Positions 41,582 through 49,515 of a stretch of 64,000 bases of DNA are shown here, one piece after another. A model generated the notes under the pieces. That model did not search any database. It was not told the DNA's origin and saw only the letters and a list, made by a program, of their open reading frames with translations. This stretch comes from a virus. The position numbers and the translations under genes are program-made. The DNA is taken from the IMG/VR virus record IMGVR_UViG_3300020034_000004, positions 1 through 64,000 of that record. One strand, 5' to 3'. Position 1 is the stretch's first letter, and the number at the start of each line of letters is the position of its first letter.

Positions 41582-41692
41582 CTATTAGACACCTCCTTTT
41601 CAGGTAGTTACCTAATCATGACCGTACCTCCAAAAGTTCATTTATATTTACCCTCCGATTTTTATCAGTGATTATGTTCAGTGATGATATTA

Positions 41693-42073
41693 TCAGTCCC
41701 ACAGATGGGAAAAGTATTGTACAAAAAGCTGCAGCGCTTTGTTACGCTTTTCCTCAAGTGCTCGTGACCAAGCGTAATAATTATTATCACTAAACTTGTA
41801 GGTATCCATGCTTTGCAGTTCAGCGTGAGCTTTGAAGCCGTCAATCATCTCGTCAAGAACAACAATCCACTCATCCATATTGACAAACCCGCCAGGAAAA
41901 CCAGCGCCAGTCTTAAAACGTTCAAGACCACCGACAATCACAAAAGCGAGGTAGTCATTGAAATTCCAAAAATCATATTCGGAAAATCCATTCTCACCAC
42001 GCTGTTTTAGATGCTCTTTGCGCTCACTTGGCTCAACAAAATCACTTGGGTCTTTGAGACTCATCAACTTCAC
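41693..42073 (-). CDS. Hypothetical phage protein
   Basis: W...LDEMI.GF...LF..YF..LWD. Confidence 0.7.
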   Translation of the reverse strand: MKLMSLKDPSDFVEPSERKEHLKQRGENGFSEYDFWNFNDYLAFVIVGGLERFKTGAGFPGGFVNMDEWIVVLDEMIDGFKAHAELQSMDTYKFSDNNYYAWSRALEEKRNKALQLFVQYFSHLWD

Positions 42074-42415
42074 TCCAATCTAGACCCTGGGCGCACTCAA
42101 GGCACGCCGGTATTTGAGTAGTGTTGTCTCCATCGAAACCTTTAATGGTCAACCGCCCGGTTGCAGGCACGTTGTTACATAATGAACAGAACTCAACACG
42201 CTCAATTGCGTTTTGGTCCAAGGTCTCTATACTCACAATCAACTACCTTTACTCCGAGGTTATCTCCAACACTAAACGTGTCTTGGACTGCATCCCATGC
42301 GTCACCTTCATCGAAGGCATCGATTTCGAGCTTCATTATTACTTCATAAATAAACTTCTTCATGGAGCTTAGTATAGCACTAAAGGATATCTAATGCCAT
42401 ACCGGTTTTTCAATG

Positions 42416-42463
42416 AAAAGACCTAAGAGAACTCAAAGCCTTACCCTATTCTCTTAGGTCTTT
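42416..42463 (-). terminator. Long inverted repeat after tRNA-Arg(ACG)
   Basis: AAAGACCTAAGAGAA...TTCTCTTAGGTCTTT. Confidence 0.6.
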
Positions 42464-42464
42464 G

Positions 42465-42541
42465 CGCGAGTGAAGGGATTCGAACCCCCATTTTCATTCC
42501 GTTATGCACTAATGGTTCGTAGCCACCGCCATTACACCCGC
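42465..42541 (-). tRNA. Atypical tRNA-Arg(ACG): 7-nt linker instead of D-arm, D-like hairpin in variable region
   Basis: GCGGGTG/CACTCGC; TAATGGC; GGTGG-CT-ACG-AA-CCATT; CAT-AACGGA-ATG; GGGGG-TTCGAAT-CCCTT. Confidence 0.75.
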
Positions 42542-42572
42542 ATTGTAATCGAAACTGTGATATGATGTAGTC

Positions 42573-43094
42573 ATGAATAATAACAGTTCGAAACATACAT
42601 GTTTGCAGTGTTTCAACGAAACAATGAATCCTAAATTCTGTTCACGTTCTTGCTCTGCAACCTATAATAATACTATCATGCCCAAGAGGCAGCGTCAAGT
42701 CTGGGTTTTCAATTGTTCTCGATGCAATAAGCCTCAAAAGAAAAAATCTTTATCTGGATTATGTTCAATTTGTTGGAATGATGAACAAGATAAAATTGCT
42801 GGAGAAATGACTCTTGGAGAATCCATAAAAGAATTTGCAAATCCCAGAAGTCGATACAATACTGTTAGACATCATGGACGAAAACTTTCCAAAATTTATA
42901 ATCAATGCCAAGTTTGTGGATATGATAAAGTTCTTCAAGTTTGCCACATCAGACCAGTCTCTTCATTTCCTCTTGATACCCAAATAAAAGAAATAAACGC
43001 ACCTGATAATATTGCAATATTATGTCCCAATCATCATTGTGAACTTGACCGAGGATTACTCGCACCCTCTGAGATACCAAATCGAGCGGCATGA
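42573..43094 (+). CDS. HNH endonuclease (leaderless)
   Basis: FCSRSC, CQVCG, HI.P, N...LCPNHH; TGaTATGAT-N6-ATG. Confidence 0.88.
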   Translation: MNNNSSKHTCLQCFNETMNPKFCSRSCSATYNNTIMPKRQRQVWVFNCSRCNKPQKKKSLSGLCSICWNDEQDKIAGEMTLGESIKEFANPRSRYNTVRHHGRKLSKIYNQCQVCGYDKVLQVCHIRPVSSFPLDTQIKEINAPDNIAILCPNHHCELDRGLLAPSEIPNRAA

Positions 43095-43095
43095 G

Positions 43096-43200
43096 ATTGT
43101 CTGGTACTCGCCAGAAGCTCTACCATTGAGACTTACTCTGCACTTACCTAGGATGGAGAGCCCGGATTCGAACCGACAACCTCCGGGTTTCCCAGACAAT
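43096..43200 (-). ncRNA. Circularly permuted tRNA-elbow RNA (YrlA-like module without Ro-binding stem)
   Basis: T-arm, then CTCT/AGAG stem, then D-arm CTC-AATGGTA-GAG, closed by CCGGAG/TTCTGG and ATTGTCTGG/CCAGACAAT. Confidence 0.7.
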
Positions 43201-43204
43201 AACG

Positions 43205-43275
43205 AGCGGATAACAGGACTCGAACCTGCTTCTCAAGATTGGAAATCTTGGGCACAACCTATATACCATATCCGC
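43205..43275 (-). tRNA. tRNA-Gly(UCC)
   Basis: CAAGA-TT-TCC-AA-TCTTG. Confidence 0.92.
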
Positions 43276-43333
43276 ATTTGGTTCCGTTGTTTTGTTAACA
43301 GTATGGCGGCTCAACGGTTTCCATAAATTCCGG

Positions 43334-43405
43334 TGCCAGCACAGAGACTTGAACTCTGTTCCTTGGGACTTCACTCCAAAGCATATCCATACATGCTCTG
43401 CTGAC
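43334..43405 (-). tRNA. tRNA-Phe(GAA), unusual anticodon loop
   Basis: TTGGA-GT-GAA-GT-CCCAA. Confidence 0.75.
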
Positions 43406-43495
43406 AGGCACCAGCGGGTACCGACGCTTCGGTATACGTTCCCTAACTGGTACTAACTACTATAACATGTTTAAGAAGGCTTGTCAAGTATCAAT

Positions 43496-44020
43496 TTATG
43501 TACCGTCGTACCAAGCAATTCCAAGAGCTAAATTGTATACCTGCTCCGAAGTCATATCATTAGCACTTTGTGTTATAGCCAAAACATCATCTTCAACCAA
43601 AGTAGGATTGAATCTACCCCATCTTCGAATATCTTGAAAGTTACAAGCTAAACGAAGAGCGTGTCTTTTTCTTTTGAAGTCGTTACCCTCGGTTAGTGCA
43701 AATGATTTAATTGTCCTCAAATACCTTTCCCATACACCTGTACCAAGAACATAATTATTTCTAAATGCAGAAATCTTATCCCTTACCGGCATTTGACTCA
43801 TCATAGCTTCACAGGCTTGTGGTACCCCAGACTCTACCTGCATCAGCCAAGTTCCAAAATCTACCACAACGGAATCAACTCCGTCAACAATGCTTTGCTT
43901 AGCATATTTTGCTCTGGCAGTCTTGACCTTTGAAACGACGGTATAGTAGTCATAATCACTATTGTCATGGTGTAAACCATACAATCTACTTCCATGAATT
44001 GTTTTGAACAATATTTCCAT
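43496..44020 (-). CDS. Pol-beta-type nucleotidyltransferase (RlaP-like)
   Basis: HGSRLYGL....SDYD; K..HALRL. Confidence 0.82.
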   Translation of the reverse strand: MEILFKTIHGSRLYGLHHDNSDYDYYTVVSKVKTARAKYAKQSIVDGVDSVVVDFGTWLMQVESGVPQACEAMMSQMPVRDKISAFRNNYVLGTGVWERYLRTIKSFALTEGNDFKRKRHALRLACNFQDIRRWGRFNPTLVEDDVLAITQSANDMTSEQVYNLALGIAWYDGT

Positions 44021-44030
44021 ACCGGCCCCC

Positions 44031-44888
44031 CTATCTCTTAGCCAACTTTCCATACTGTCCGTTAGCAGTTGCACACACACCGGTAGTTGCATAGAATGGG
44101 TTACTGGCCGGTACATTAACTAAACTTGGGTAATAATAATGCATATAATACTGCCAAACATATGCCATACGTAAATGTCCACAAGAACTAGCATGAATCT
44201 TATCAGTATTTAGGTCTTTGACTTCATCACCAATAATATTCATAGGAACATACTTAACATATGAAGGATTCGCATTCGCTACCGCCAAAATCTTGCTGTT
44301 CAATTCAGCCCACTTAGCGTGAGGAGACTTAATCAGACTTGCCAAAAAGACAATGGTGTCTGGACTAGCCAAATGAATACGAGTAACTAATAGCTGGATT
44401 CTATTCTGTACGTTAGGAATATCATAGTTCTGGGCCAAATCATTCGTACCGGCGTGAATCAAAACATACTTTGGCTTATAAAGAATGACTCGATTAGCAA
44501 CAACGGTACTCAATTCGTCAATTCGCCAACCAGAATGTCCTTCATGATTGTTGTCACCCATTACCTGGAAAGCAGTCTTATGACACTTATATGGGAGCCA
44601 TGGACTAATTGGACATTGACCAACCATATTTGGCTTCTGCATACCGCCCGCGTTGAGTCCCTGAACCAATGGTCCTCGGTAACCGTCAGTAGCATCTACA
44701 TACTGGCCGGTAGAATTGGTATGAGGATTATAACCCCATGTGTTTGAATCGCCCAAGGGCATAATATTTGTGTATTCATCAATAAGAGTCGTCTTGAGTG
44801 TAAATGGTCGAGGAGATACCTTCGCTTCGGCTGGTGCAGTTAACACGAACGACATCAACATCAACATAATCGAGAATAGCGTCTTCAT
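44031..44888 (-). CDS. Secreted SGNH/GDSL esterase
   Basis: Signal peptide; PLGDSNT, HEGHSG, GTND, DKIH. Confidence 0.88.
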   Translation of the reverse strand: MKTLFSIMLMLMSFVLTAPAEAKVSPRPFTLKTTLIDEYTNIMPLGDSNTWGYNPHTNSTGQYVDATDGYRGPLVQGLNAGGMQKPNMVGQCPISPWLPYKCHKTAFQVMGDNNHEGHSGWRIDELSTVVANRVILYKPKYVLIHAGTNDLAQNYDIPNVQNRIQLLVTRIHLASPDTIVFLASLIKSPHAKWAELNSKILAVANANPSYVKYVPMNIIGDEVKDLNTDKIHASSCGHLRMAYVWQYYMHYYYPSLVNVPASNPFYATTGVCATANGQYGKLAKR

Positions 44889-45085
44889 GATTCCCCTATC
44901 TAAGTATAACTCATTATTGAATGACGTAGAATTCTCCCGCTTTATACGGAGTACTCCAAATTGCAGTTTCAAAGCGTCCAAGATTTTCAATGTTAAATCT
45001 CTCCAAGGTGACGCCTTTCTAACGACCTAATACAAGCATACAGGTGGGAGCGGTACCTGTCAAGGCCCTACTCCCACCTATATTA

Positions 45086-46174
45086 TCAGATTCTACCGGC
45101 TGAGAAATCCGCTAGGACTCTTGGAGCCGCTGCATCAAATCCAACGAAGTCCATCATGATTCCTGGCATCGTTGGGTCCGCAATTGTGAACTCAGTACCA
45201 GCAAAAGCAACTACAGCTAGTCTTGAGTCGCGACCAGAAGTCTGACGATACTTAACTAGGGACTGTGCTGGCTTCTCTGGCCCGGCCCAAGTTTCGTTAT
45301 CGGTAAATACCATGAATGTATCAATGTTCTTGTTCTTCTCACGTGCGTGACGCATTGGCGCAGAACAATCAGTACCGCCTCCACTAAAGCGGCTAATTTT
45401 TTCCTTCACTGTTTCCAAAGAGTCGCGGTCAGAGACATTGACTGTCTTGACTTTCTCCACGTAAGTGCCAAAAGCATTGATTTCAACATATGGCTCTGTA
45501 CGCAGAGTAACCATTGCCATTACTGCAGCAGCCCCGGCGTAGTCCATACCAACCAGACCAGCAGGAGCACCCCACGTCATGGACGCGGAAGTGTCAATGC
45601 TAATCATTGTGCGCTTGTTGGCAGGTTCAATTGTCTGGAAGGCGCTATAGAAACCATCTTCCAAGGCACCCAGAACTTTAGCGTTAACTGCCCATTCGCG
45701 ATGACGAACTCCATAACCTCCCTGCGCGAGCGGACCTTTACCATAAATACCCAATGCGTTTGCGTAGGCAACTGGATGAACTCGACCATTGATAATTCTC
45801 TCTTCGTTGGCCAGAGCCTGAGCCACATCGCCAGCGAACTTCAAATCATCAAACGCACCAATCTTAGCGAAACGAGTTACATTTCGTAAAAGTGCAGTTT
45901 GTCCCAATGCTCCATCGTAGAATAGAGTCTTCCAGACCTCTGCTTCTTTTAGGAACTGAGTTGGAACTGCTTCCCATGGAAGGTTCTTATGAATCCTCAA
46001 TGCATTCAGAACTTCTGACACATTCTGCGCAGACTGAACCATCTGAAATCCATGCAAAATCTCAGGAGCATCTTTAGAAATCTCTCCCTTAAGGATAAAG
46101 TCTCCCACCCTTGGGTTTATACCCTTCGGATGAGCTAGTCTAAACAAATCGGCGTGTCGCCATGTGTTACTCAT
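45086..46174 (-). CDS. Ro60/TROVE protein, C-terminal part (rest of TROVE and vWA domain)
   Basis: W.H.DLFRLAHPK, ALLRN, DTSASM MIDAS, GGTDC, FTDNETW, GFDAAAP. Confidence 0.92.
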   Translation of the reverse strand: MSNTWRHADLFRLAHPKGINPRVGDFILKGEISKDAPEILHGFQMVQSAQNVSEVLNALRIHKNLPWEAVPTQFLKEAEVWKTLFYDGALGQTALLRNVTRFAKIGAFDDLKFAGDVAQALANEERIINGRVHPVAYANALGIYGKGPLAQGGYGVRHREWAVNAKVLGALEDGFYSAFQTIEPANKRTMISIDTSASMTWGAPAGLVGMDYAGAAAVMAMVTLRTEPYVEINAFGTYVEKVKTVNVSDRDSLETVKEKISRFSGGGTDCSAPMRHAREKNKNIDTFMVFTDNETWAGPEKPAQSLVKYRQTSGRDSRLAVVAFAGTEFTIADPTMPGIMMDFVGFDAAAPRVLADFSAGRI

Positions 46175-46205
46175 ATTTTTCCTTTCGGCTCACTATCAGT
46201 GAGCA
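46175..46205 (-). promoter_or_regulatory. Hairpin and RBS leader, copy 2
   Basis: TGCTCA-CTGATAG-TGAGC-CGAAAGGAAAAAT-ATG. Confidence 0.7.
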
Positions 46206-46333
46206 TAATATAATAAATTCTTCACCAGAAATATGCATGTATCCCCATCGGGTAGAGCCATACTTTGATGATTTTGAACAGCAATGCGTAGATTGGGTAC
46301 CTAACAATATCTGAATATTGTGAAATCCAATTG

Positions 46334-46885
46334 TTAGACAGTGCGTGACCTATACTTCACGGCTTGATAAGCCAACTGCTCAGGAGTCTTTGATTCATAC
46401 CATCCTGCTACCGCTGCCCTCTTGGAACGACCCCAGCCACCAAATGCCTTGACGTAAGATGCGAACTCGAATAGATGAGTAGAAGTACGAACTACCTTAT
46501 TTACCGCCGCGCGAGCGTATGCCTTGTCCTGACCTTCAAAGAAGACCAATGCAAGAGTAAAGATAGTAGGTGACTGCTTCGCTGCGCGGTTGTTGACTGA
46601 TACGTCAACAACGGTATCGACAACCTCACGCTCATTGATTTTAATCATTTCCTTAACAAAGTCAACATTCTGCTTCGTTAGGTCTGATTCACCAACGTAA
46701 TAGGTGCCTGAATCGGTACCCAGAATAAGAAATCGTTCCAACCTGTCCTTATCTGATACCTTGAACACAAACCCACCGGCACTGTTTAAGACTTCGTCAG
46801 TCCTGCCTGGTGTGCGCTCGCTCTGTGGTGTAGAACCCTTACGGTTACGCTGAGTAGCGGCGGTACGTGTTAATGCGTTTGACAT
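46334..46885 (-). CDS. Ro60/TROVE protein, N-terminal part
   Basis: NSAGGFVF, RFLILGT..GTYY, RT.THLF.F, GWGR, LAYQAVKYR. Confidence 0.92.
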   Translation of the reverse strand: MSNALTRTAATQRNRKGSTPQSERTPGRTDEVLNSAGGFVFKVSDKDRLERFLILGTDSGTYYVGESDLTKQNVDFVKEMIKINEREVVDTVVDVSVNNRAAKQSPTIFTLALVFFEGQDKAYARAAVNKVVRTSTHLFEFASYVKAFGGWGRSKRAAVAGWYESKTPEQLAYQAVKYRSRTV

Positions 46886-46920
46886 AATATTTCCCTTTCG
46901 GCTCATTCGCTATATGAGCA
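46886..46920 (-). promoter_or_regulatory. Hairpin and RBS leader, copy 1
   Basis: TGCTCA-TATAGCGAA-TGAGC-CGAAAGGGAAATATT-ATG. Confidence 0.7.
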
Positions 46921-47082
46921 TTAGATAGGTGAGCTAACTATTCATCCAGACTGGCATGAATTACGTTTCTTATATCTTCCTGAAGTTGATTGGTTCTCTC
47001 ATGAGTCCAATACCCGTCGCCTCTTGCGAACGCCTCGACGAATGCGAATCCCAGGGCAACTTCTAAATTTTCTTTGTTCACG

Positions 47083-47155
47083 TGCGCCAGGTCGGGGTCG
47101 AACCGACATCAACCTGTATATAAGACAGGGACACTTACCTTTGTGCTACCGGCGC
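47083..47155 (-). tRNA. tRNA-Ile(UAU)
   Basis: CCTGT-CT-TAT-AT-ACAGG. Confidence 0.88.
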
Positions 47156-47549
47156 GCTTGAGATATGCCAATGCTTTCTCAAGACCCTCGATGTTATCAC
47201 CAAGCATCCCAATTCCAACATTGCAATTCCCACAAAGACCACCACGAAACAATCCAGTCTTATGGTTATGGTCGATTACAATTGCAGGTCTAAGTTCACA
47301 TGAGTAGCATAGACCACTCAACGCTTCTTGAACCTGCTCAAGAGGTATGTTGTACTTCTGGGCCTTGTGCTTACCTGTTGCCTTGTAAGCACTGACTCTA
47401 TCACGTTGCTTCTGGCGATTGCTACCCTTTGAGTAGTACTCTCGCTGATAAGCATTGTGACACACTTTGCACTTGCCAGTCAACTTACCTCGCTTGGTAG
47501 CGAATTCAGATTCTGGCTTCTCTTTATTACACTCAATACAAATCTTCAT
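47109..47549 (-). CDS. Endonuclease VII-type HNH nuclease (leaderless)
   Basis: IDHNH.TG.FRG.LC..CN..IG...DN...L..A..YL. Confidence 0.88.
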   Translation of the reverse strand: MKICIECNKEKPESEFATKRGKLTGKCKVCHNAYQREYYSKGSNRQKQRDRVSAYKATGKHKAQKYNIPLEQVQEALSGLCYSCELRPAIVIDHNHKTGLFRGGLCGNCNVGIGMLGDNIEGLEKALAYLKRAGSTKVSVPVLYTG

Positions 47550-47660
47550 ATTTGGATTATATCAAGGATTATATCCTAAAACCAAAACTAAAGACCCGAT
47601 ACCGTAGAGTGAGGTTATCACTTATTCGTATCGAGTCCTGTGCACTTTTTACAGTGCCAG

Positions 47661-47751
47661 CGGAAGCGGGGTGGTTTCGAACCCCCAAGGGCCATAAGCC
47701 TCGCTCGCTTTCAAGGCGAGTGCCGTCGTCCAAAATTCGGCTTGCGCTTCC
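47661..47751 (-). tRNA. tRNA-Ser(UGA)
   Basis: CTCGC-CT-TGA-AA-GCGAG, long arm, G73. Confidence 0.88.
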
Positions 47752-47754
47752 ATG

Positions 47755-47819
47755 ACCAGATATGTTGATTGAGAACGTGTTTATTTGTTTGAAAGATAAA
47801 CGTACTCATTCGACCCGGT
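47755..47819 (-). ncRNA. Minimal Y RNA (Ro-binding stem only)
   Basis: GGGTCGAATG...TTATCT...AACATATC consensus shared with the two larger copies. Confidence 0.75.
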
Positions 47820-47895
47820 TGGTGGGCGTGGGGAATTTCGAAATCCCGACCTCTTCGGTGTAAACGAAGCGCTCTTCCTCTGAGACTACACGCCC
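47820..47895 (-). tRNA. tRNA-Val(UAC), encoded CCA, atypical T-arm
   Basis: CTTCG-TT-TAC-AC-CGAAG. Confidence 0.87.
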
Positions 47896-47926
47896 AAGAT
47901 ATTTAATTGTTATCGAATTGTTATTA

Positions 47927-48051
47927 TTGAGGATATGTTATAGAAATCGAGTTTTTAACGCTCTTCCATTAAGCTACAGACCGAAGTCCAGTGGGATTCG
48001 AACCCACATCTCTCTTTTGACATAAGATAATCGAATTCATTCGACCCTCAA
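47927..48051 (-). ncRNA. yrlA: Y RNA, YrlA type
   Basis: GAGGGTCGAATG...GATTATCT; T-arm GTGGG-TTCGAAT-CCCAC, TGGAC-TTCG-GTCTG, D-arm GCTT-AATGGAA-GAGC; AACATATCCTC. Confidence 0.9.
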
Positions 48052-48071
48052 ACTTATGGTATCTCTAACGG

Positions 48072-48143
48072 CGGCCCCGACGAGAGTTGAACTCGCTCTA
48101 ACACCTTGACAGGGTGACGTGCGCACCGGTACACTACGGAACC
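48072..48143 (-). tRNA. tRNA-Asp(GUC)
   Basis: TCACC-CT-GTC-AA-GGTGT. Confidence 0.92.
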
Positions 48144-48149
48144 ATTTCA

Positions 48150-48290
48150 TCATTCAGAACATTTATTACCATAATGGTTAAGCACATCCATCTTAACAGA
48201 CAATCTTCGAACTTTCAAATAGTCTCGTTGCTTTTGCCTATTATTTTGTCTATACTTTGCTTGGGACACTTTACGTTTCTCTTCATCCAT
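48150..48290 (-). pseudogene. Truncated N-terminus of an HNH-type endonuclease
   Basis: MDEEKRK...VLNHYGNKCSE then stop; leaderless TGaTACTAT-N6-ATG like the intact HNH genes. Confidence 0.5.
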
Positions 48291-48416
48291 AGTAATATAG
48301 TATCATTATATATAATCTCCATCACAGGCCAAATTTGGTGGGACATTATAAAGGGCTGTCCCGGTTACCCTGTTATATCATACCACGTTTCGAACCGCAA
48401 TACAATACCTACGTTA

Positions 48417-48538
48417 TGATGGACATGTTATGGTTTCGGAGATTGTCCCGGCTTCCCGTGGGACTATAAAGGACTCGAACCTTCTGCCGTTTATATACCA
48501 TTTATATGTGAGATAACCGAAAATCCTTCGGCCCATCA
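48417..48538 (-). ncRNA. Y RNA with variant effector domain
   Basis: GATGGGCCGAAGG...GGTTATCT; ATATA-AATGG-TATAT hairpin, T-arm GAAGG-TTCGAGT-CCTTT, GTCCC/GGGAC; AACATGTCCATC. Confidence 0.82.
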
Positions 48539-48561
48539 AGCTTGTTGGTTTTTAGACCAAG

Positions 48562-48636
48562 TGGGAAAGGTCGGATTCGAACCGACGCCCTTTCGCGTAT
48601 CAGACGATTGCTCCAACCAGACTGAGCTACTCTCCC
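48562..48636 (-). tRNA. tRNA-Ile(GAU)
   Basis: ATCGT-CT-GAT-AC-GCGAA. Confidence 0.9.
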
Positions 48637-48671
48637 ATTGGGTTGGTTTGAGAAACCATTTCCTAAAACAG

Positions 48672-48745
48672 TGCGGATGGTGGGATTCGAACCGACGCGC
48701 TCTTGTATCCAAAACAAGCAGGCTGCCCTACACCCACAATTCCAT
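48672..48745 (-). tRNA. Degenerate tRNA-Pro(UGG)
   Basis: CTTGT-TT-TGG-AT-ACAAG; poor acceptor and D pairing. Confidence 0.5.
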
Positions 48746-48756
48746 ATTACCTCAAG

Positions 48757-48828
48757 TCGGGTACCCCAGGGTCGAACTGGGTTTCTTCTGTTCCCAAAAC
48801 AGACGGATTACCGTCTTCCTCGTACCCG
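48757..48828 (-). tRNA. tRNA-Pro(UGG)
   Basis: CGGGTAC/GTACCCG; TCTGT-TT-TGG-GA-ACAGA. Confidence 0.9.
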
Positions 48829-48844
48829 AAACCGTTTATTTTTA

Positions 48845-49280
48845 TAGTGGCTAACGTCTTAACGGCTTTCACCGCTCCATCCACTGTTGTGAGCAACCTA
48901 CGCTATTGATAAATTTAGAATAAATCATCTACGTTGGCGATTAATCTGCTCTGAACTCACAAGTCACAAAGTAGAATCTGATTCCAAGGATTGGCTACCT
49001 CGTCGGCTACACGGTACCGTCAGACTATTAACTTTTCTCATCTACTAAGAATAAAGTGAGAGGAAGGGTGCTACCTTCACGCGGGGGGAGACCTTAGCAT
49101 GTAAGATTACCCCACGACCATTCGTTTGCCGCTAAGCACAGATTCAACAAGTCGCTAAACTTGCCTCCTAGTCTCACCGCATTAGCCTAACTAGGGTACT
49201 TCTGCCGAACGTGCATTACGAGCTACGTCTCCGACACTCGCATTTCTGCCACTCTCAGACGAAGGTGCTACCTTCGTCTT
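48845..49280 (-). ncRNA. Large structured ncRNA candidate between tRNA-Trp and tRNA-Pro
   Basis: No credible ORF; many helices; repeated GAAGG-TAGCA-C hairpins; tRNA-like 5' domain. Confidence 0.6.
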
Positions 49281-49282
49281 TG

Positions 49283-49353
49283 CACCCGACGAGAGATTCG
49301 AACTCTCACGCTAGAGTTTTGGAGGCTCTGCGACTCAACCTACGCTGTCGGAT
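49283..49353 (-). tRNA. tRNA-Trp(CCA)
   Basis: AGAGC-CT-CCA-AA-ACTCT. Confidence 0.85.
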
Positions 49354-49515
49354 ATAGGTCTTTCGACCACATTTACTACTCTATCACATCTTCATGCATC
49401 ATGTCAAGATTCATATCTTCCATAATCTCTTGGTATTCTTCTGTCCATACCCCGGAAATCAGATTCTCACCAAGAACCATTACTACGTCTATATTAGCAT
49501 CTGCTGTTGGCATTG

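What the first reader, a model, noticed from the sequence alone, without database searches (positions are those of the whole stretch)
45086..46920. Ro60/TROVE split into two genes, each with a near-identical hairpin-RBS leader
Seen: the N-part ends ...LAYQAVKYRSRTV* and the C-part begins MSNTWRHADLFRLAHPK. Joined, they rebuild the Ro60 segment KYRxRxxWxHxDLxRLxHPK with no residues missing. A 159-nt in-frame spacer containing stop codons separates them. Both ORFs are preceded by the same element, a TGCTCA-loop-TGAGC hairpin then CGAAAGG(G)AAA..T-ATG, and both start Met-Ser-Asn. Established: Ro60 is normally one ring-shaped polypeptide that binds Y RNA and misfolded RNA. Inference: the second leader is a copy of the first, so this looks like a deliberate two-subunit Ro60 with matched (perhaps Ro-autoregulated) translation rather than a decaying pseudogene. 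A ring assembled from two chains could open to load RNA or exchange Y RNAs.
Basis: partly seen in the sequence, partly recalled or inferred. Interest (0 to 1): 0.88.

Follow-up and report, generated by a model that had tools for sequence, protein, structure and literature searches.

The report
Ro60 gene split by homing endonuclease
A soil phage's ring-shaped RNA-binding protein Ro60 is encoded as two separate genes because a selfish nuclease gene, now decayed to a 159-base stub, once landed in it. Both halves carry the same short leader, which looks like the Ro-binding stem of the phage's own Y RNAs.

Summary
Ro60 lies on the minus strand as an N half (46334-46885) and a C half (45086-46174). 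A 159-nt spacer in the same frame, with stop codons, separates them. Each half follows the same hairpin and ribosome-binding element, which occurs nowhere else in the 97-kb record. Contigs from two soil samples and two studies span the gap without indels.

The split is not a purpose-built two-subunit design. The spacer is the stub of a free-standing HNH/EndoVII-type homing endonuclease gene. A relative (L093) holds the intact 186-aa gene at the same codon. The window keeps only its residues about 61-83 and 166-183.

About 50 diverged metagenomic N halves end at the same residue (KYRSR[ST][VIAF]). At least 8 C halves start just before the conserved Trp. Split forms are scattered among unsplit ones (AU p = 1.5e-31). 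This fits repeated homing or loss. Both halves remain under purifying selection (omega about 0.2).

The leader is specific to Ro genes and is also present before unsplit Ro genes. It is a circular permutation of the Y-RNA terminal stem and includes the published Rsr motif GNCGAAN0-1G. Ro feedback on both halves is plausible but untested.

The scan had already noted this same stretch in another window.

The parts
46886..46927 (-). Leader of the N half. 5' flank TATCTAAT (46927-46920); hairpin GCTCA (46919-46915), 9-nt loop, TGAGC (46905-46901); then CGAAAGGG (SD) and 7 nt to the ATG at 46885. Contains GCCGAAAG, which fits GNCGAAN0-1G.
   Evidence: The same architecture stands before unsplit Ro genes in about 30 relatives, with compensatory stem changes.
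46334..46885 (-). Ro60 N half, 183 aa. It holds the TROVE/HEAT repeats up to KYRSR-TV and the stop codon.
   Evidence: Pfam TROVE E 2.9e-12. About 50 diverged homologues of 174-186 aa end at the same residue. Against L092 there are 4 synonymous and 2 non-synonymous changes.
46175..46333 (-). 159-nt spacer, the remnant of a free-standing HNH/EndoVII-type homing endonuclease gene. Four stop codons lie in the Ro frame.
46167..46307 (-). 46-codon remnant ORF of the endonuclease. Its residues 6-28 match HEG residues 61-83 and its residues 29-46 match HEG residues 166-183. The nuclease core (about residues 84-165) and the first 60 or so residues are deleted. Its last codons encode the C-half leader and overlap the C-half ATG.
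   Evidence: BLASTP to P0218: 78% over 23 aa, E 1e-12, and 56% over 18 aa, E 7e-5. To the L093 HEG: E 5e-9 and 1e-5. The L093 HEG matches PHROG endonuclease families at E 1.6e-21 to 4e-15.
46175..46212 (-). Leader of the C half. 5' flank TATATTAT (46212-46205); hairpin GCTCAC (46204-46199), loop TGATA, GTGAGC (46193-46188); then CGAAAGGAA (SD) and AAAT to the ATG at 46174.
   Evidence: In L092 the only change in it is C to T at 46199, which turns a C-G pair into U-G. The L093 C leader reads GTTCG/CGAGC followed by CGAAGGAG.
45086..46174 (-). Ro60 C half, 362 aa. It holds the rest of the HEAT ring from W-x-H-x-D-L and RLAHP, plus the vWA domain with the MIDAS motif D-T-S-A-S.
   Evidence: Pfam TROVE 7e-16 and vWA_Ro60 1.5e-48. 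Split C halves of 359-368 aa exist in other lineages. Against L092 there are 5 synonymous and 4 non-synonymous changes.

Best explanation
A free-standing HNH/EndoVII-type homing endonuclease gene (HEG) inserted into the phage Ro60 gene. In cultured relatives, members of this HEG family sit immediately downstream of an unsplit Ro gene. The insertion point is the tip of a short beta-turn between two HEAT helices. In Xenopus numbering this lies between R174 and W177, in the most conserved stretch of the gene.

The cassette supplies a stop codon for the upstream half. Inside its own last codons it supplies a hairpin, SD and ATG for the downstream half. Ro60 is therefore made as two polypeptides of 183 and 362 aa. 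These presumably assemble non-covalently into the usual ring with its vWA domain.

The cassette has moved into, or been lost from, many related phage lineages. It drags the flanking KYRSR codons with it. In this phage two deletions have killed the HEG, leaving a 159-nt stub. The two-gene arrangement remains, and selection keeps both halves intact.

Both halves carry the same Ro-specific leader, a circularly permuted copy of the Y-RNA terminal stem with the Rsr motif abutting the SD. This most likely puts both halves under one common post-transcriptional control.

Shown: the split, its HEG origin, its spread, purifying selection, and the leader's specificity and likeness to Y RNA.

Inferred: assembly of the two chains, homing as the mechanism of spread, and any function of the leader.
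For: - Intact HEG at the same codon. In L093 the N half ends KYRSRSV with a stop. A 186-aa ORF with PHROG endonuclease, EndoVII and HNH matches (E 1.6e-21 to 4e-15) follows. The C half then starts at an ATG overlapping that ORF's end.
- The window spacer ORF matches the two ends of that family, with the core missing.
- The same HEG family lies just 3' of unsplit Ro in L028 and L020. It does so too in Streptomyces phages Anedea, LukeCage, Limpid, Jada, Kenrey and Patelgo.
- 52 short N halves at 47-73% identity all end KYRSR plus two residues. Seven other C halves, plus that of L093, start 2-9 residues before the conserved Trp. Three N/C pairs share contig sizes.
- The split state needs at least 18 changes on the N-region tree, and at least 9 are forced by starred branches. 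The AU test rejects one clade, delta lnL 396, p 1.5e-31. The window's N half is 80% identical to unsplit P0097.
- Window against L092: 9 synonymous and 6 non-synonymous changes, omega about 0.2, binomial P 0.0026.
- AlphaFold model of unsplit P0097 (pLDDT 86): the junction is the turn D182-G183 between helices 168-177 and 186-193. L028-type proteins carry a 4-residue insertion exactly there.
- Leader: unique in this genome and in a Gilson-like genome. It is conserved, with covarying stems, before unsplit Ro genes.
Against: - No protein or RNA data show that either half is made or that the halves associate.
The state of the spacer in the other 50 or so lineages is therefore unknown.
- Omega rests on only 15 substitutions.
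- Polyphyly of the split could reflect general phage mosaicism or repeated precise loss rather than homing.
- No split form was found in IMG/VR, in cultured phages or in GTDB genomes.
- The first 50 nt of the spacer has no recognisable counterpart in L093.
Confidence: 0.78

Rival explanations
1. Adaptive, purpose-built two-subunit Ro60. The gene was divided and the leader duplicated because a two-chain ring is advantageous, for instance by opening to load RNA. The endonuclease is incidental.
For: The split persists after the HEG has decayed, and both halves are under purifying selection. The split is widespread. Both halves carry the same Ro-specific leader.
Against: An intact HEG occupies the gap in L093, and remnants of it fill the gap here. 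All cultured relatives and the 80 best IMG/VR relatives are unsplit. Closest relatives of split forms are often unsplit, as expected for a selfish element and not for a fixed adaptation. Persistence needs only neutrality: once split, precise re-fusion is improbable.
Confidence: 0.08
2. Inactivated gene. The insertion killed Ro60 and the two ORFs are decaying leftovers.
For: Five in-frame stops between the last N-half residue and the C-half ATG. The HEG itself is clearly decaying.
Against: Both ORFs are intact in two strains, with omega about 0.2, P 0.0026. About 50 diverged N halves keep the invariant TROVE residues and end at one codon. The C halves keep the full vWA domain and MIDAS motif. 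The C half has a good SD and ATG.
Confidence: 0.07
3. The gap is removed or skipped to give one chain, by a small intron, by translational bypass as in T4 gene 60, or by read-through.
For: The spacer is exactly in frame, and the joined sequence is collinear with unsplit relatives. Hairpins lie at the stop codon.
Against: No Rfam intron or other family at E up to 1. 159 nt is smaller than known self-splicing introns (my own knowledge). Five stops rule out read-through and an intein. No matching take-off and landing codons flank the gap. In L093 the gap is about 590 nt, is not in frame, and is filled by a complete ORF. C halves in other lineages each start with their own Met and have tails of variable length.
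Confidence: 0.04
4. For the leader only. The Y-RNA likeness is an evolutionary relic, a collapsed junction between tandem Y-RNA genes. The hairpin acts merely as an mRNA 5' stabiliser or processing signal and is not bound by Ro.
For: Apart from the leaders themselves, most of the next-best hits of the leader model are junctions between tandem Y RNAs upstream of Ro. Ro lies at the end of a tRNA and Y-RNA array on the same strand. The hairpins are thermodynamically unremarkable, z -0.4 to -1.4.
Against: A relic would not be expected to be rebuilt inside the coding 3' end of the HEG in front of the C half. The CG after the stem is invariant and the T before it nearly so, while the stem covaries.
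Confidence: 0.4

Closest known systems
Phage Aeh1 nrdA split by the free-standing endonuclease mobE ('genes in pieces'; Crona et al. 2011, PMC3045599)
   Same: A free-standing homing endonuclease gene sits inside a conserved phage gene. This yields two ORFs whose products must assemble. Short cassette-derived tails lie at the new C- and N-termini, here TV and MS. No RNA or protein splicing is involved.
   Different: The target is Ro60, not ribonucleotide reductase. Here the endonuclease has since decayed to a 159-nt stub while the split persists. The cassette's 3' end carries a copy of the host gene's own specific leader. Assembly and activity have not been tested.
Single-chain Ro60/Rsr with adjacent Y RNAs: Deinococcus Rsr (2NVO), Xenopus Ro60 (1YVP), Thermus phage phiLo Ro60 (PMC12135203), Streptomyces BE-cluster phage 'Ro-like RNA binding protein'
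   Same: TROVE plus vWA architecture. P0097, 80% identical to the N half in the N region and 67% to the C half, matches 2NVO at E 5.6e-109. Y-like RNAs carrying the CGAA motif lie upstream on the same strand.
   Different: Two polypeptides instead of one. The break falls between the residues corresponding to Xenopus R174 and W177. This is just before H187, whose mutation abolishes Y-RNA binding (PMC11277228).
Bacterial Y RNAs (YrlA/YrlB) and their GNCGAAN0-1G Rsr motif (Chen et al. 2014, PMC4201824)
   Same: The leader holds GCCGAAAG directly 3' of a GRGC/GYYC helix, with an A.AT flank 5' of it. These are the same three elements as the terminal stem of this phage's Y RNAs.
   Different: The helix is capped by a 5-9 nt loop, a circular permutation, instead of being closed by the RNA ends. 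There is no tRNA-like domain. It lies in an mRNA leader, with its 3' flank serving as the SD. No Rfam Y-RNA model matches.
Autoregulation by molecular mimicry, as in ribosomal-protein operons and E. coli thrS (from my own knowledge)
   Same: An RNA-binding protein's mRNA leader carries a copy of the protein's normal RNA ligand next to the ribosome-binding site.
   Different: This has not been described for Ro60, as far as my searches and knowledge go. It is purely inferred here.

Membership tests
Ro60 / TROVE (Rsr) | TROVE (HEAT-repeat) domain | tested here: met
   PF05731 positions 2-158 in the N half (E 2.9e-12) and 272-350 in the C half (E 7e-16).
Ro60 / TROVE (Rsr) | C-terminal vWA domain with MIDAS motif DxSxS | tested here: met
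   PF25045 vWA_Ro60 E 1.5e-48. D-T-S-A-S can be read in the C half.
Ro60 / TROVE (Rsr) | Ring formed by a single polypeptide | tested here: not met
   Two ORFs separated by 159 nt; five in-frame stops before the C-half ATG.
Ro60 / TROVE (Rsr) | Y RNA genes near the gene on the same strand | tested here: inconclusive
   Three stem RNAs with GRGY-CGAA...ACAT-RTYC ends lie at 47755-48532. No Rfam Y-RNA model reaches threshold.
Gene fragmented by a free-standing homing endonuclease ('genes in pieces') | Endonuclease ORF lies between the two halves | tested here: met
   Intact 186-aa HEG in L093. Remnant of the same family in the window.
Gene fragmented by a free-standing homing endonuclease ('genes in pieces') | Uninterrupted homologues are collinear across the junction | tested here: met
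   The closest relatives found in IMG/VR, wherever the junction could be read, and the cultured Streptomyces phages are unsplit. KYRSRTFGGNTW matches KYRSRTV+MSNTW.
Gene fragmented by a free-standing homing endonuclease ('genes in pieces') | Downstream half has its own translation start | tested here: met
   AAAGGA, 5 nt, ATG in the window; GAAGGAG, 8 nt, ATG in L093. Sequence evidence only.
Gene fragmented by a free-standing homing endonuclease ('genes in pieces') | Halves assemble into an active protein | not testable with these tools
   Only indirect evidence: omega about 0.2, and a break at a surface turn that tolerates insertions.
Gene fragmented by a free-standing homing endonuclease ('genes in pieces') | Endonuclease cleaves the HEG-less allele and homes | not testable with these tools
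   Indirect evidence: polyphyletic distribution, and junction codons tied to the split state.
HNH/EndoVII nuclease (spacer ORF of the window) | Catalytic core present | tested here: not met
   HEG residues about 84-165 are absent. No Pfam match, and only one weak PHROG match of unknown function at E 0.057.
Self-splicing intron or intein | Ribozyme core, or an uninterrupted in-frame insert | tested here: not met
   No Rfam hit at E up to 1. Five in-frame stops before the C-half ATG.
Programmed translational bypass (T4 gene 60 type) | Matching take-off and landing codons around a short gap, with no independent start | tested here: not met
   No matching codons flank the gap. The C half has an SD and ATG. 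In L093 the gap is about 590 nt and out of frame.
Y RNA (YrlA-like), for the leader | GNCGAAN0-1G motif next to the terminal helix | tested here: met
   GCCGAAAG in both leaders. The motif background is 3.6e-4 per nt.
Y RNA (YrlA-like), for the leader | Stem closed by the RNA's 5' and 3' ends, large internal loop or tRNA-like domain | tested here: not met
   The helix is capped by a 5-9 nt loop and there is no further domain. The leader mimics the Rsr site but is not a Y RNA.

The most novel reading that the evidence does not exclude
The Ro mRNA leader is an operator that mimics the Rsr-binding stem of Y RNA. Ro60 binds it and occludes the adjoining Shine-Dalgarno sequence, in competition with free Y RNA. 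After the endonuclease split the gene, the same operator was installed in front of the C half. Both chains of the two-piece Ro60 are therefore titrated together. This would be the first autoregulatory circuit described for any Ro60.
Probability: 0.33. Interest if true: 0.8.

Novelty: new variant of a known kind. Interest (0 to 1): 0.6.

Why it matters
In every organism described so far, Ro60 is a closed ring made of one chain. A natural two-chain form, present in dozens of phage lineages, gives structural biologists a ready-made system. It can be used to ask how the ring folds and whether it can open.

The break falls between the residues aligned with Xenopus K170/R174 and H187. H187 is needed for Y-RNA binding (PMC11277228). 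From memory, K170 and R174 are residues of the central cavity.

The case also shows a gene fragmentation outliving the homing endonuclease that caused it.

The Ro-specific leader copies the Y-RNA Rsr site next to the ribosome-binding site. This offers a simple, testable handle on how Ro levels are set relative to Y RNA, a question with no known answer in bacteria or phages. An unsplit version of the leader exists in cultured Streptomyces phages, so the test can be done with isolates.

Tried and rejected
DNA of the roughly 50 other split loci could therefore not be fetched, and their spacers, HEG states and C leaders remain unseen.
- A split-specific DNA pattern found nothing in IMG/VR or in GTDB genomes. 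In JGI metagenomes it found two true hits, L092 and L093, and two chance hits, L094 and L095.
- Megablast of the locus against the phage collection found no match.
- Rfam found no family in 44900-47200 except a tRNA, and no Y-RNA hit anywhere in the window.
- The sigma-70 promoter and terminator scan found nothing in front of either half and nothing above the shuffled background.
- I first thought the leader might be a genome-wide expression signal. I rejected this because it is unique to Ro in this genome and in a Gilson-like genome.
- I considered reading the conserved A.AT flank as a -10 box. I rejected this because the transcript would then lack the 5' arm of a hairpin that shows U-G pairs only in the sense orientation.
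- Folding energies of the leaders are not significant on their own.
- No RNA holder is listed among the public runs, so nothing can be said about expression.
- The shared Met-Ser-Asn start cannot be shown to be a copy. The Ser codons differ at all three bases, and other split C halves start MTN, MSS, MTK or MG.
- Linking P0218 (HEG) with P0127 (C half) rests only on equal contig length.
Full report
**What is there**

The window is part of a 97,489-base IMG/VR viral record. It is about 42% G+C and carries 30 tRNA genes and a tmRNA. Most genes lie on the minus strand.

On that strand a Ro60 gene is in two pieces.
- The N half, 46334-46885, is 183 aa from the SD-preceded ATG and ends KYRSRTV.
- The C half, 45086-46174, is 362 aa and begins MSNTWRHADLFRLAHPK.
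- Pfam puts TROVE positions 2-158 in the N half. It puts TROVE 272-350 plus the Ro60 vWA domain in the C half.
- The 159-nt spacer is in the Ro frame. Five stop codons lie between the last N-half residue and the C-half ATG, counting the N half's own TAA.

Each half is preceded by AT, a GCTCA(C)/(G)TGAGC hairpin, CGAAAGG and an ATG. The 11-mer GAGCCGAAAGG occurs only at these two places in the whole record. A generic scan for a hairpin followed by CGRAA finds no other site with an SD and start codon.

**It is not an artefact**

An independent Logan contig of the probable source sample spans 45800-47000 with no difference. Contigs from a second soil sample and study carry a 99%-identical strain, and a 678-nt piece crosses the entire spacer without indels. 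JGI contig L092 is that second strain. It is 99.24% identical over window 41622-46904 and has the same 159-nt spacer.

**What the spacer is**

A split-specific DNA pattern recovered a second, diverged split locus, L093.
- Its N half ends KYRSRSV with a stop.
- An intact 186-aa ORF follows. It matches PHROG endonuclease, endonuclease VII and HNH families at E 1.6e-21 to 4e-15.
- The C half (MTNKTVSRWSHRDLF...) starts at an ATG that overlaps the end of that ORF.

The window's spacer contains a 46-codon ORF, 46167-46307.
- Its residues 6-28 are 78% identical to residues 61-83 of a relative of that endonuclease, P0218 (E 1e-12).
- Its residues 29-46 match residues 166-183 of P0218 (E 7e-5). Matches to the L093 protein give E 5e-9 and 1e-5.

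The spacer is therefore a homing endonuclease gene that has lost its nuclease core and its first 60 or so codons.

Members of the same family lie immediately downstream of unsplit Ro genes in L028 and L020. They do so too in cultured Streptomyces phages such as LukeCage, Limpid, Jada, Kenrey, Patelgo and Anedea. This is a Ro-associated family of free-standing endonucleases.

**How widespread the split is**

- In the 5.8-billion-protein collection, 52 short proteins of 174-201 aa, at 47-73% identity to the N half, all end KYRSR plus two residues ([ST][VIAF]).
- Seven other C halves of 359-368 aa begin with Met plus 2-9 residues before the conserved Trp. Three N/C pairs share contig sizes.
- All cultured phages and the best IMG/VR relatives whose junction could be read are unsplit. 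They read KYRQR(N/D/E)GW or, in the L028 group, KYRSRTFGGNTW. The latter is exactly collinear with KYRSRTV+MSNTW.
- On a tree of the N regions, with junction residues removed, the split state needs at least 18 changes, and at least 9 are forced by well-supported branches.
- The window's N half sits in a supported clade with twelve unsplit proteins and is 80% identical to P0097.
- An AU test on 43 rows rejects a single split clade, delta lnL 396, p 1.5e-31. I chose those rows after seeing the first tree.

This is the pattern expected from a homing cassette that enters, or is lost from, related genomes by recombination and co-converts the flanking codons. It does not prove homing.

**The halves are maintained**

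Between the window and L092 the two halves differ by 9 synonymous and 6 non-synonymous changes. This gives omega of about 0.2. The binomial probability of so few non-synonymous changes under neutrality is 0.0026.

The spacer has 2 changes in 159 nt. One of them converts a C-G pair of the C-leader hairpin into U-G.

An AlphaFold model of unsplit P0097 has mean pLDDT 86. It places the junction at a tight turn (D182-G183) between helix 168-177 and helix 186-193. L028-type proteins tolerate four extra residues at exactly this spot.

By alignment to Xenopus Ro60 (1YVP), the break lies between R174 and W177. H187, in the following helix, is needed for Y-RNA binding (PMC11277228). That K170 and R174 line the central cavity is from my memory of Fuchs et al. 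2006, and I did not check it here.

**The leader**

The same architecture stands in front of unsplit Ro genes in about 30 relatives: A.AT, a 5-7 bp G+C-rich hairpin, CG(A/G)AA and the SD.
- The stems change in a compensatory way: G-C, A-U or U-A at one pair, and C-G or U-A at another.
- U-G pairs appear only in the sense orientation.
- Caveat: I picked the hairpins by requiring perfect stems. The 100% pairing is therefore circular, and only the covariation and the conserved flanks count as evidence.

In a complete Gilson-like genome the motif is again unique to the Ro leader.

The element matches the Y RNAs of these phages. The three Y-like RNAs upstream in the window (47755-47814, 47928-48045, 48418-48532) and those of relatives begin N3-4-GRGY-CGAA and end ACAT-RTYC-N3-4. 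The leader has the same three parts with the helix capped by a small loop, which is a circular permutation.

Both window leaders contain GCCGAAAG. This fits GNCGAAN0-1G, the motif proposed as the Rsr recognition site of bacterial Y RNAs (Chen et al. 2014, PMC4201824). Its background frequency here is 3.6e-4 per nt.

A covariance model built from the leaders alone finds nothing else strong in 457 kb of window and loci. Most of its next-best hits (E 0.006-0.4) are junctions between tandem Y-RNA genes, that is, a Y 3' strand followed by a Y 5' strand.

**The C-half leader sits inside the endonuclease gene**

In the window and in L093 the C leader is encoded by the last codons of the endonuclease (LCSLI-V/A-SR...). 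Family members outside Ro end F.xLCxxVSRN without any hairpin or CGAAAGG.

The leader was therefore built into, or grafted onto, the 3' end of the cassette. The Val-Ser-Arg codons are homologous to the family's own C-terminus. It is not a plain tandem duplicate of the first leader.

In L092 the N leader has GCTCG/CGAGC instead of GCTCA/TGAGC. Homology with the window ends inside the hairpin, and a different EndoVII-type gene lies upstream.

**Verdict**

This is a maintained two-gene Ro60 with matched leaders, but the split was created by a selfish endonuclease and not as a designed two-subunit protein.

The closest known case is nrdA of phage Aeh1, split by mobE (PMC3045599). I found no paper on a split Ro60.

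Whether Ro binds its own leaders is untested. I put it at about one in three.

An earlier first-stage note on this same stretch, read from another window, already proposed a Y-RNA-mimic hairpin. I tested that idea here by sequence comparison only.

Noticed in passing
window 46905-47581 against L092 5284-5860: Two strains that are 99.2% identical across the Ro locus differ completely just upstream of the Ro leader. Each has a different EndoVII-type endonuclease gene there (window 47109-47549; L092 5345-5818). The breakpoint lies inside the leader hairpin, whose two arms differ in a compensatory way (GCTCA/TGAGC against GCTCG/CGAGC).
   Followed up: partly
window 47082-47155 and 47109-47549 (minus strand): The 146-aa Endonuclease_7 ORF (Pfam E 1.3e-16) overlaps the tRNA-Ile(TAT) gene by about 47 nt at its 3' end.
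   Followed up: no
window 47755-47814, 47928-48045, 48418-48532 (minus); also L012 about 1662-1800, and L030, L044 and L021 upstream of Ro: Tandem Y-like RNAs with ends GRGY-CGAA...ACAT-RTYC lie upstream of Ro in many relatives. The helix next to the CGAA covaries (GGGT/ATCC, GGGC/GTCC, GAGT/ATTC, GAGC/GTTC). Rfam models do not detect them.
   Followed up: partly
window 49278 and 49367 (minus strand): Two further GNCGAAN0-1G motifs. They extend a cluster of eight such motifs in 46189-49367, where about one would be expected.
   Followed up: no
L028 5130-5699, L020 5161-5724; Streptomyces phages LukeCage gp130, Limpid gp101, Jada gp107, Kenrey gp108, Anedea gp128: A specific family of free-standing HNH-type endonuclease genes sits directly 3' of the Ro gene in cultured BE-cluster Streptomyces phages. 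Several are annotated only as hypothetical proteins.
   Followed up: partly
L028, L029, L033, L034, L037, L038, L040, L043, L047, L052 (Ro junction): A subgroup of unsplit phage Ro60 proteins carries a four-residue insertion (KYRSR-x-F-G-x-x-TW) at the turn where the split occurs in other lineages.
   Followed up: no
window 46188-46198 (minus strand): The loop and 3' arm of the C-leader hairpin spell three consecutive stop codons (TGA TAG TGA) in the Ro frame, immediately before the C-half SD.
   Followed up: no
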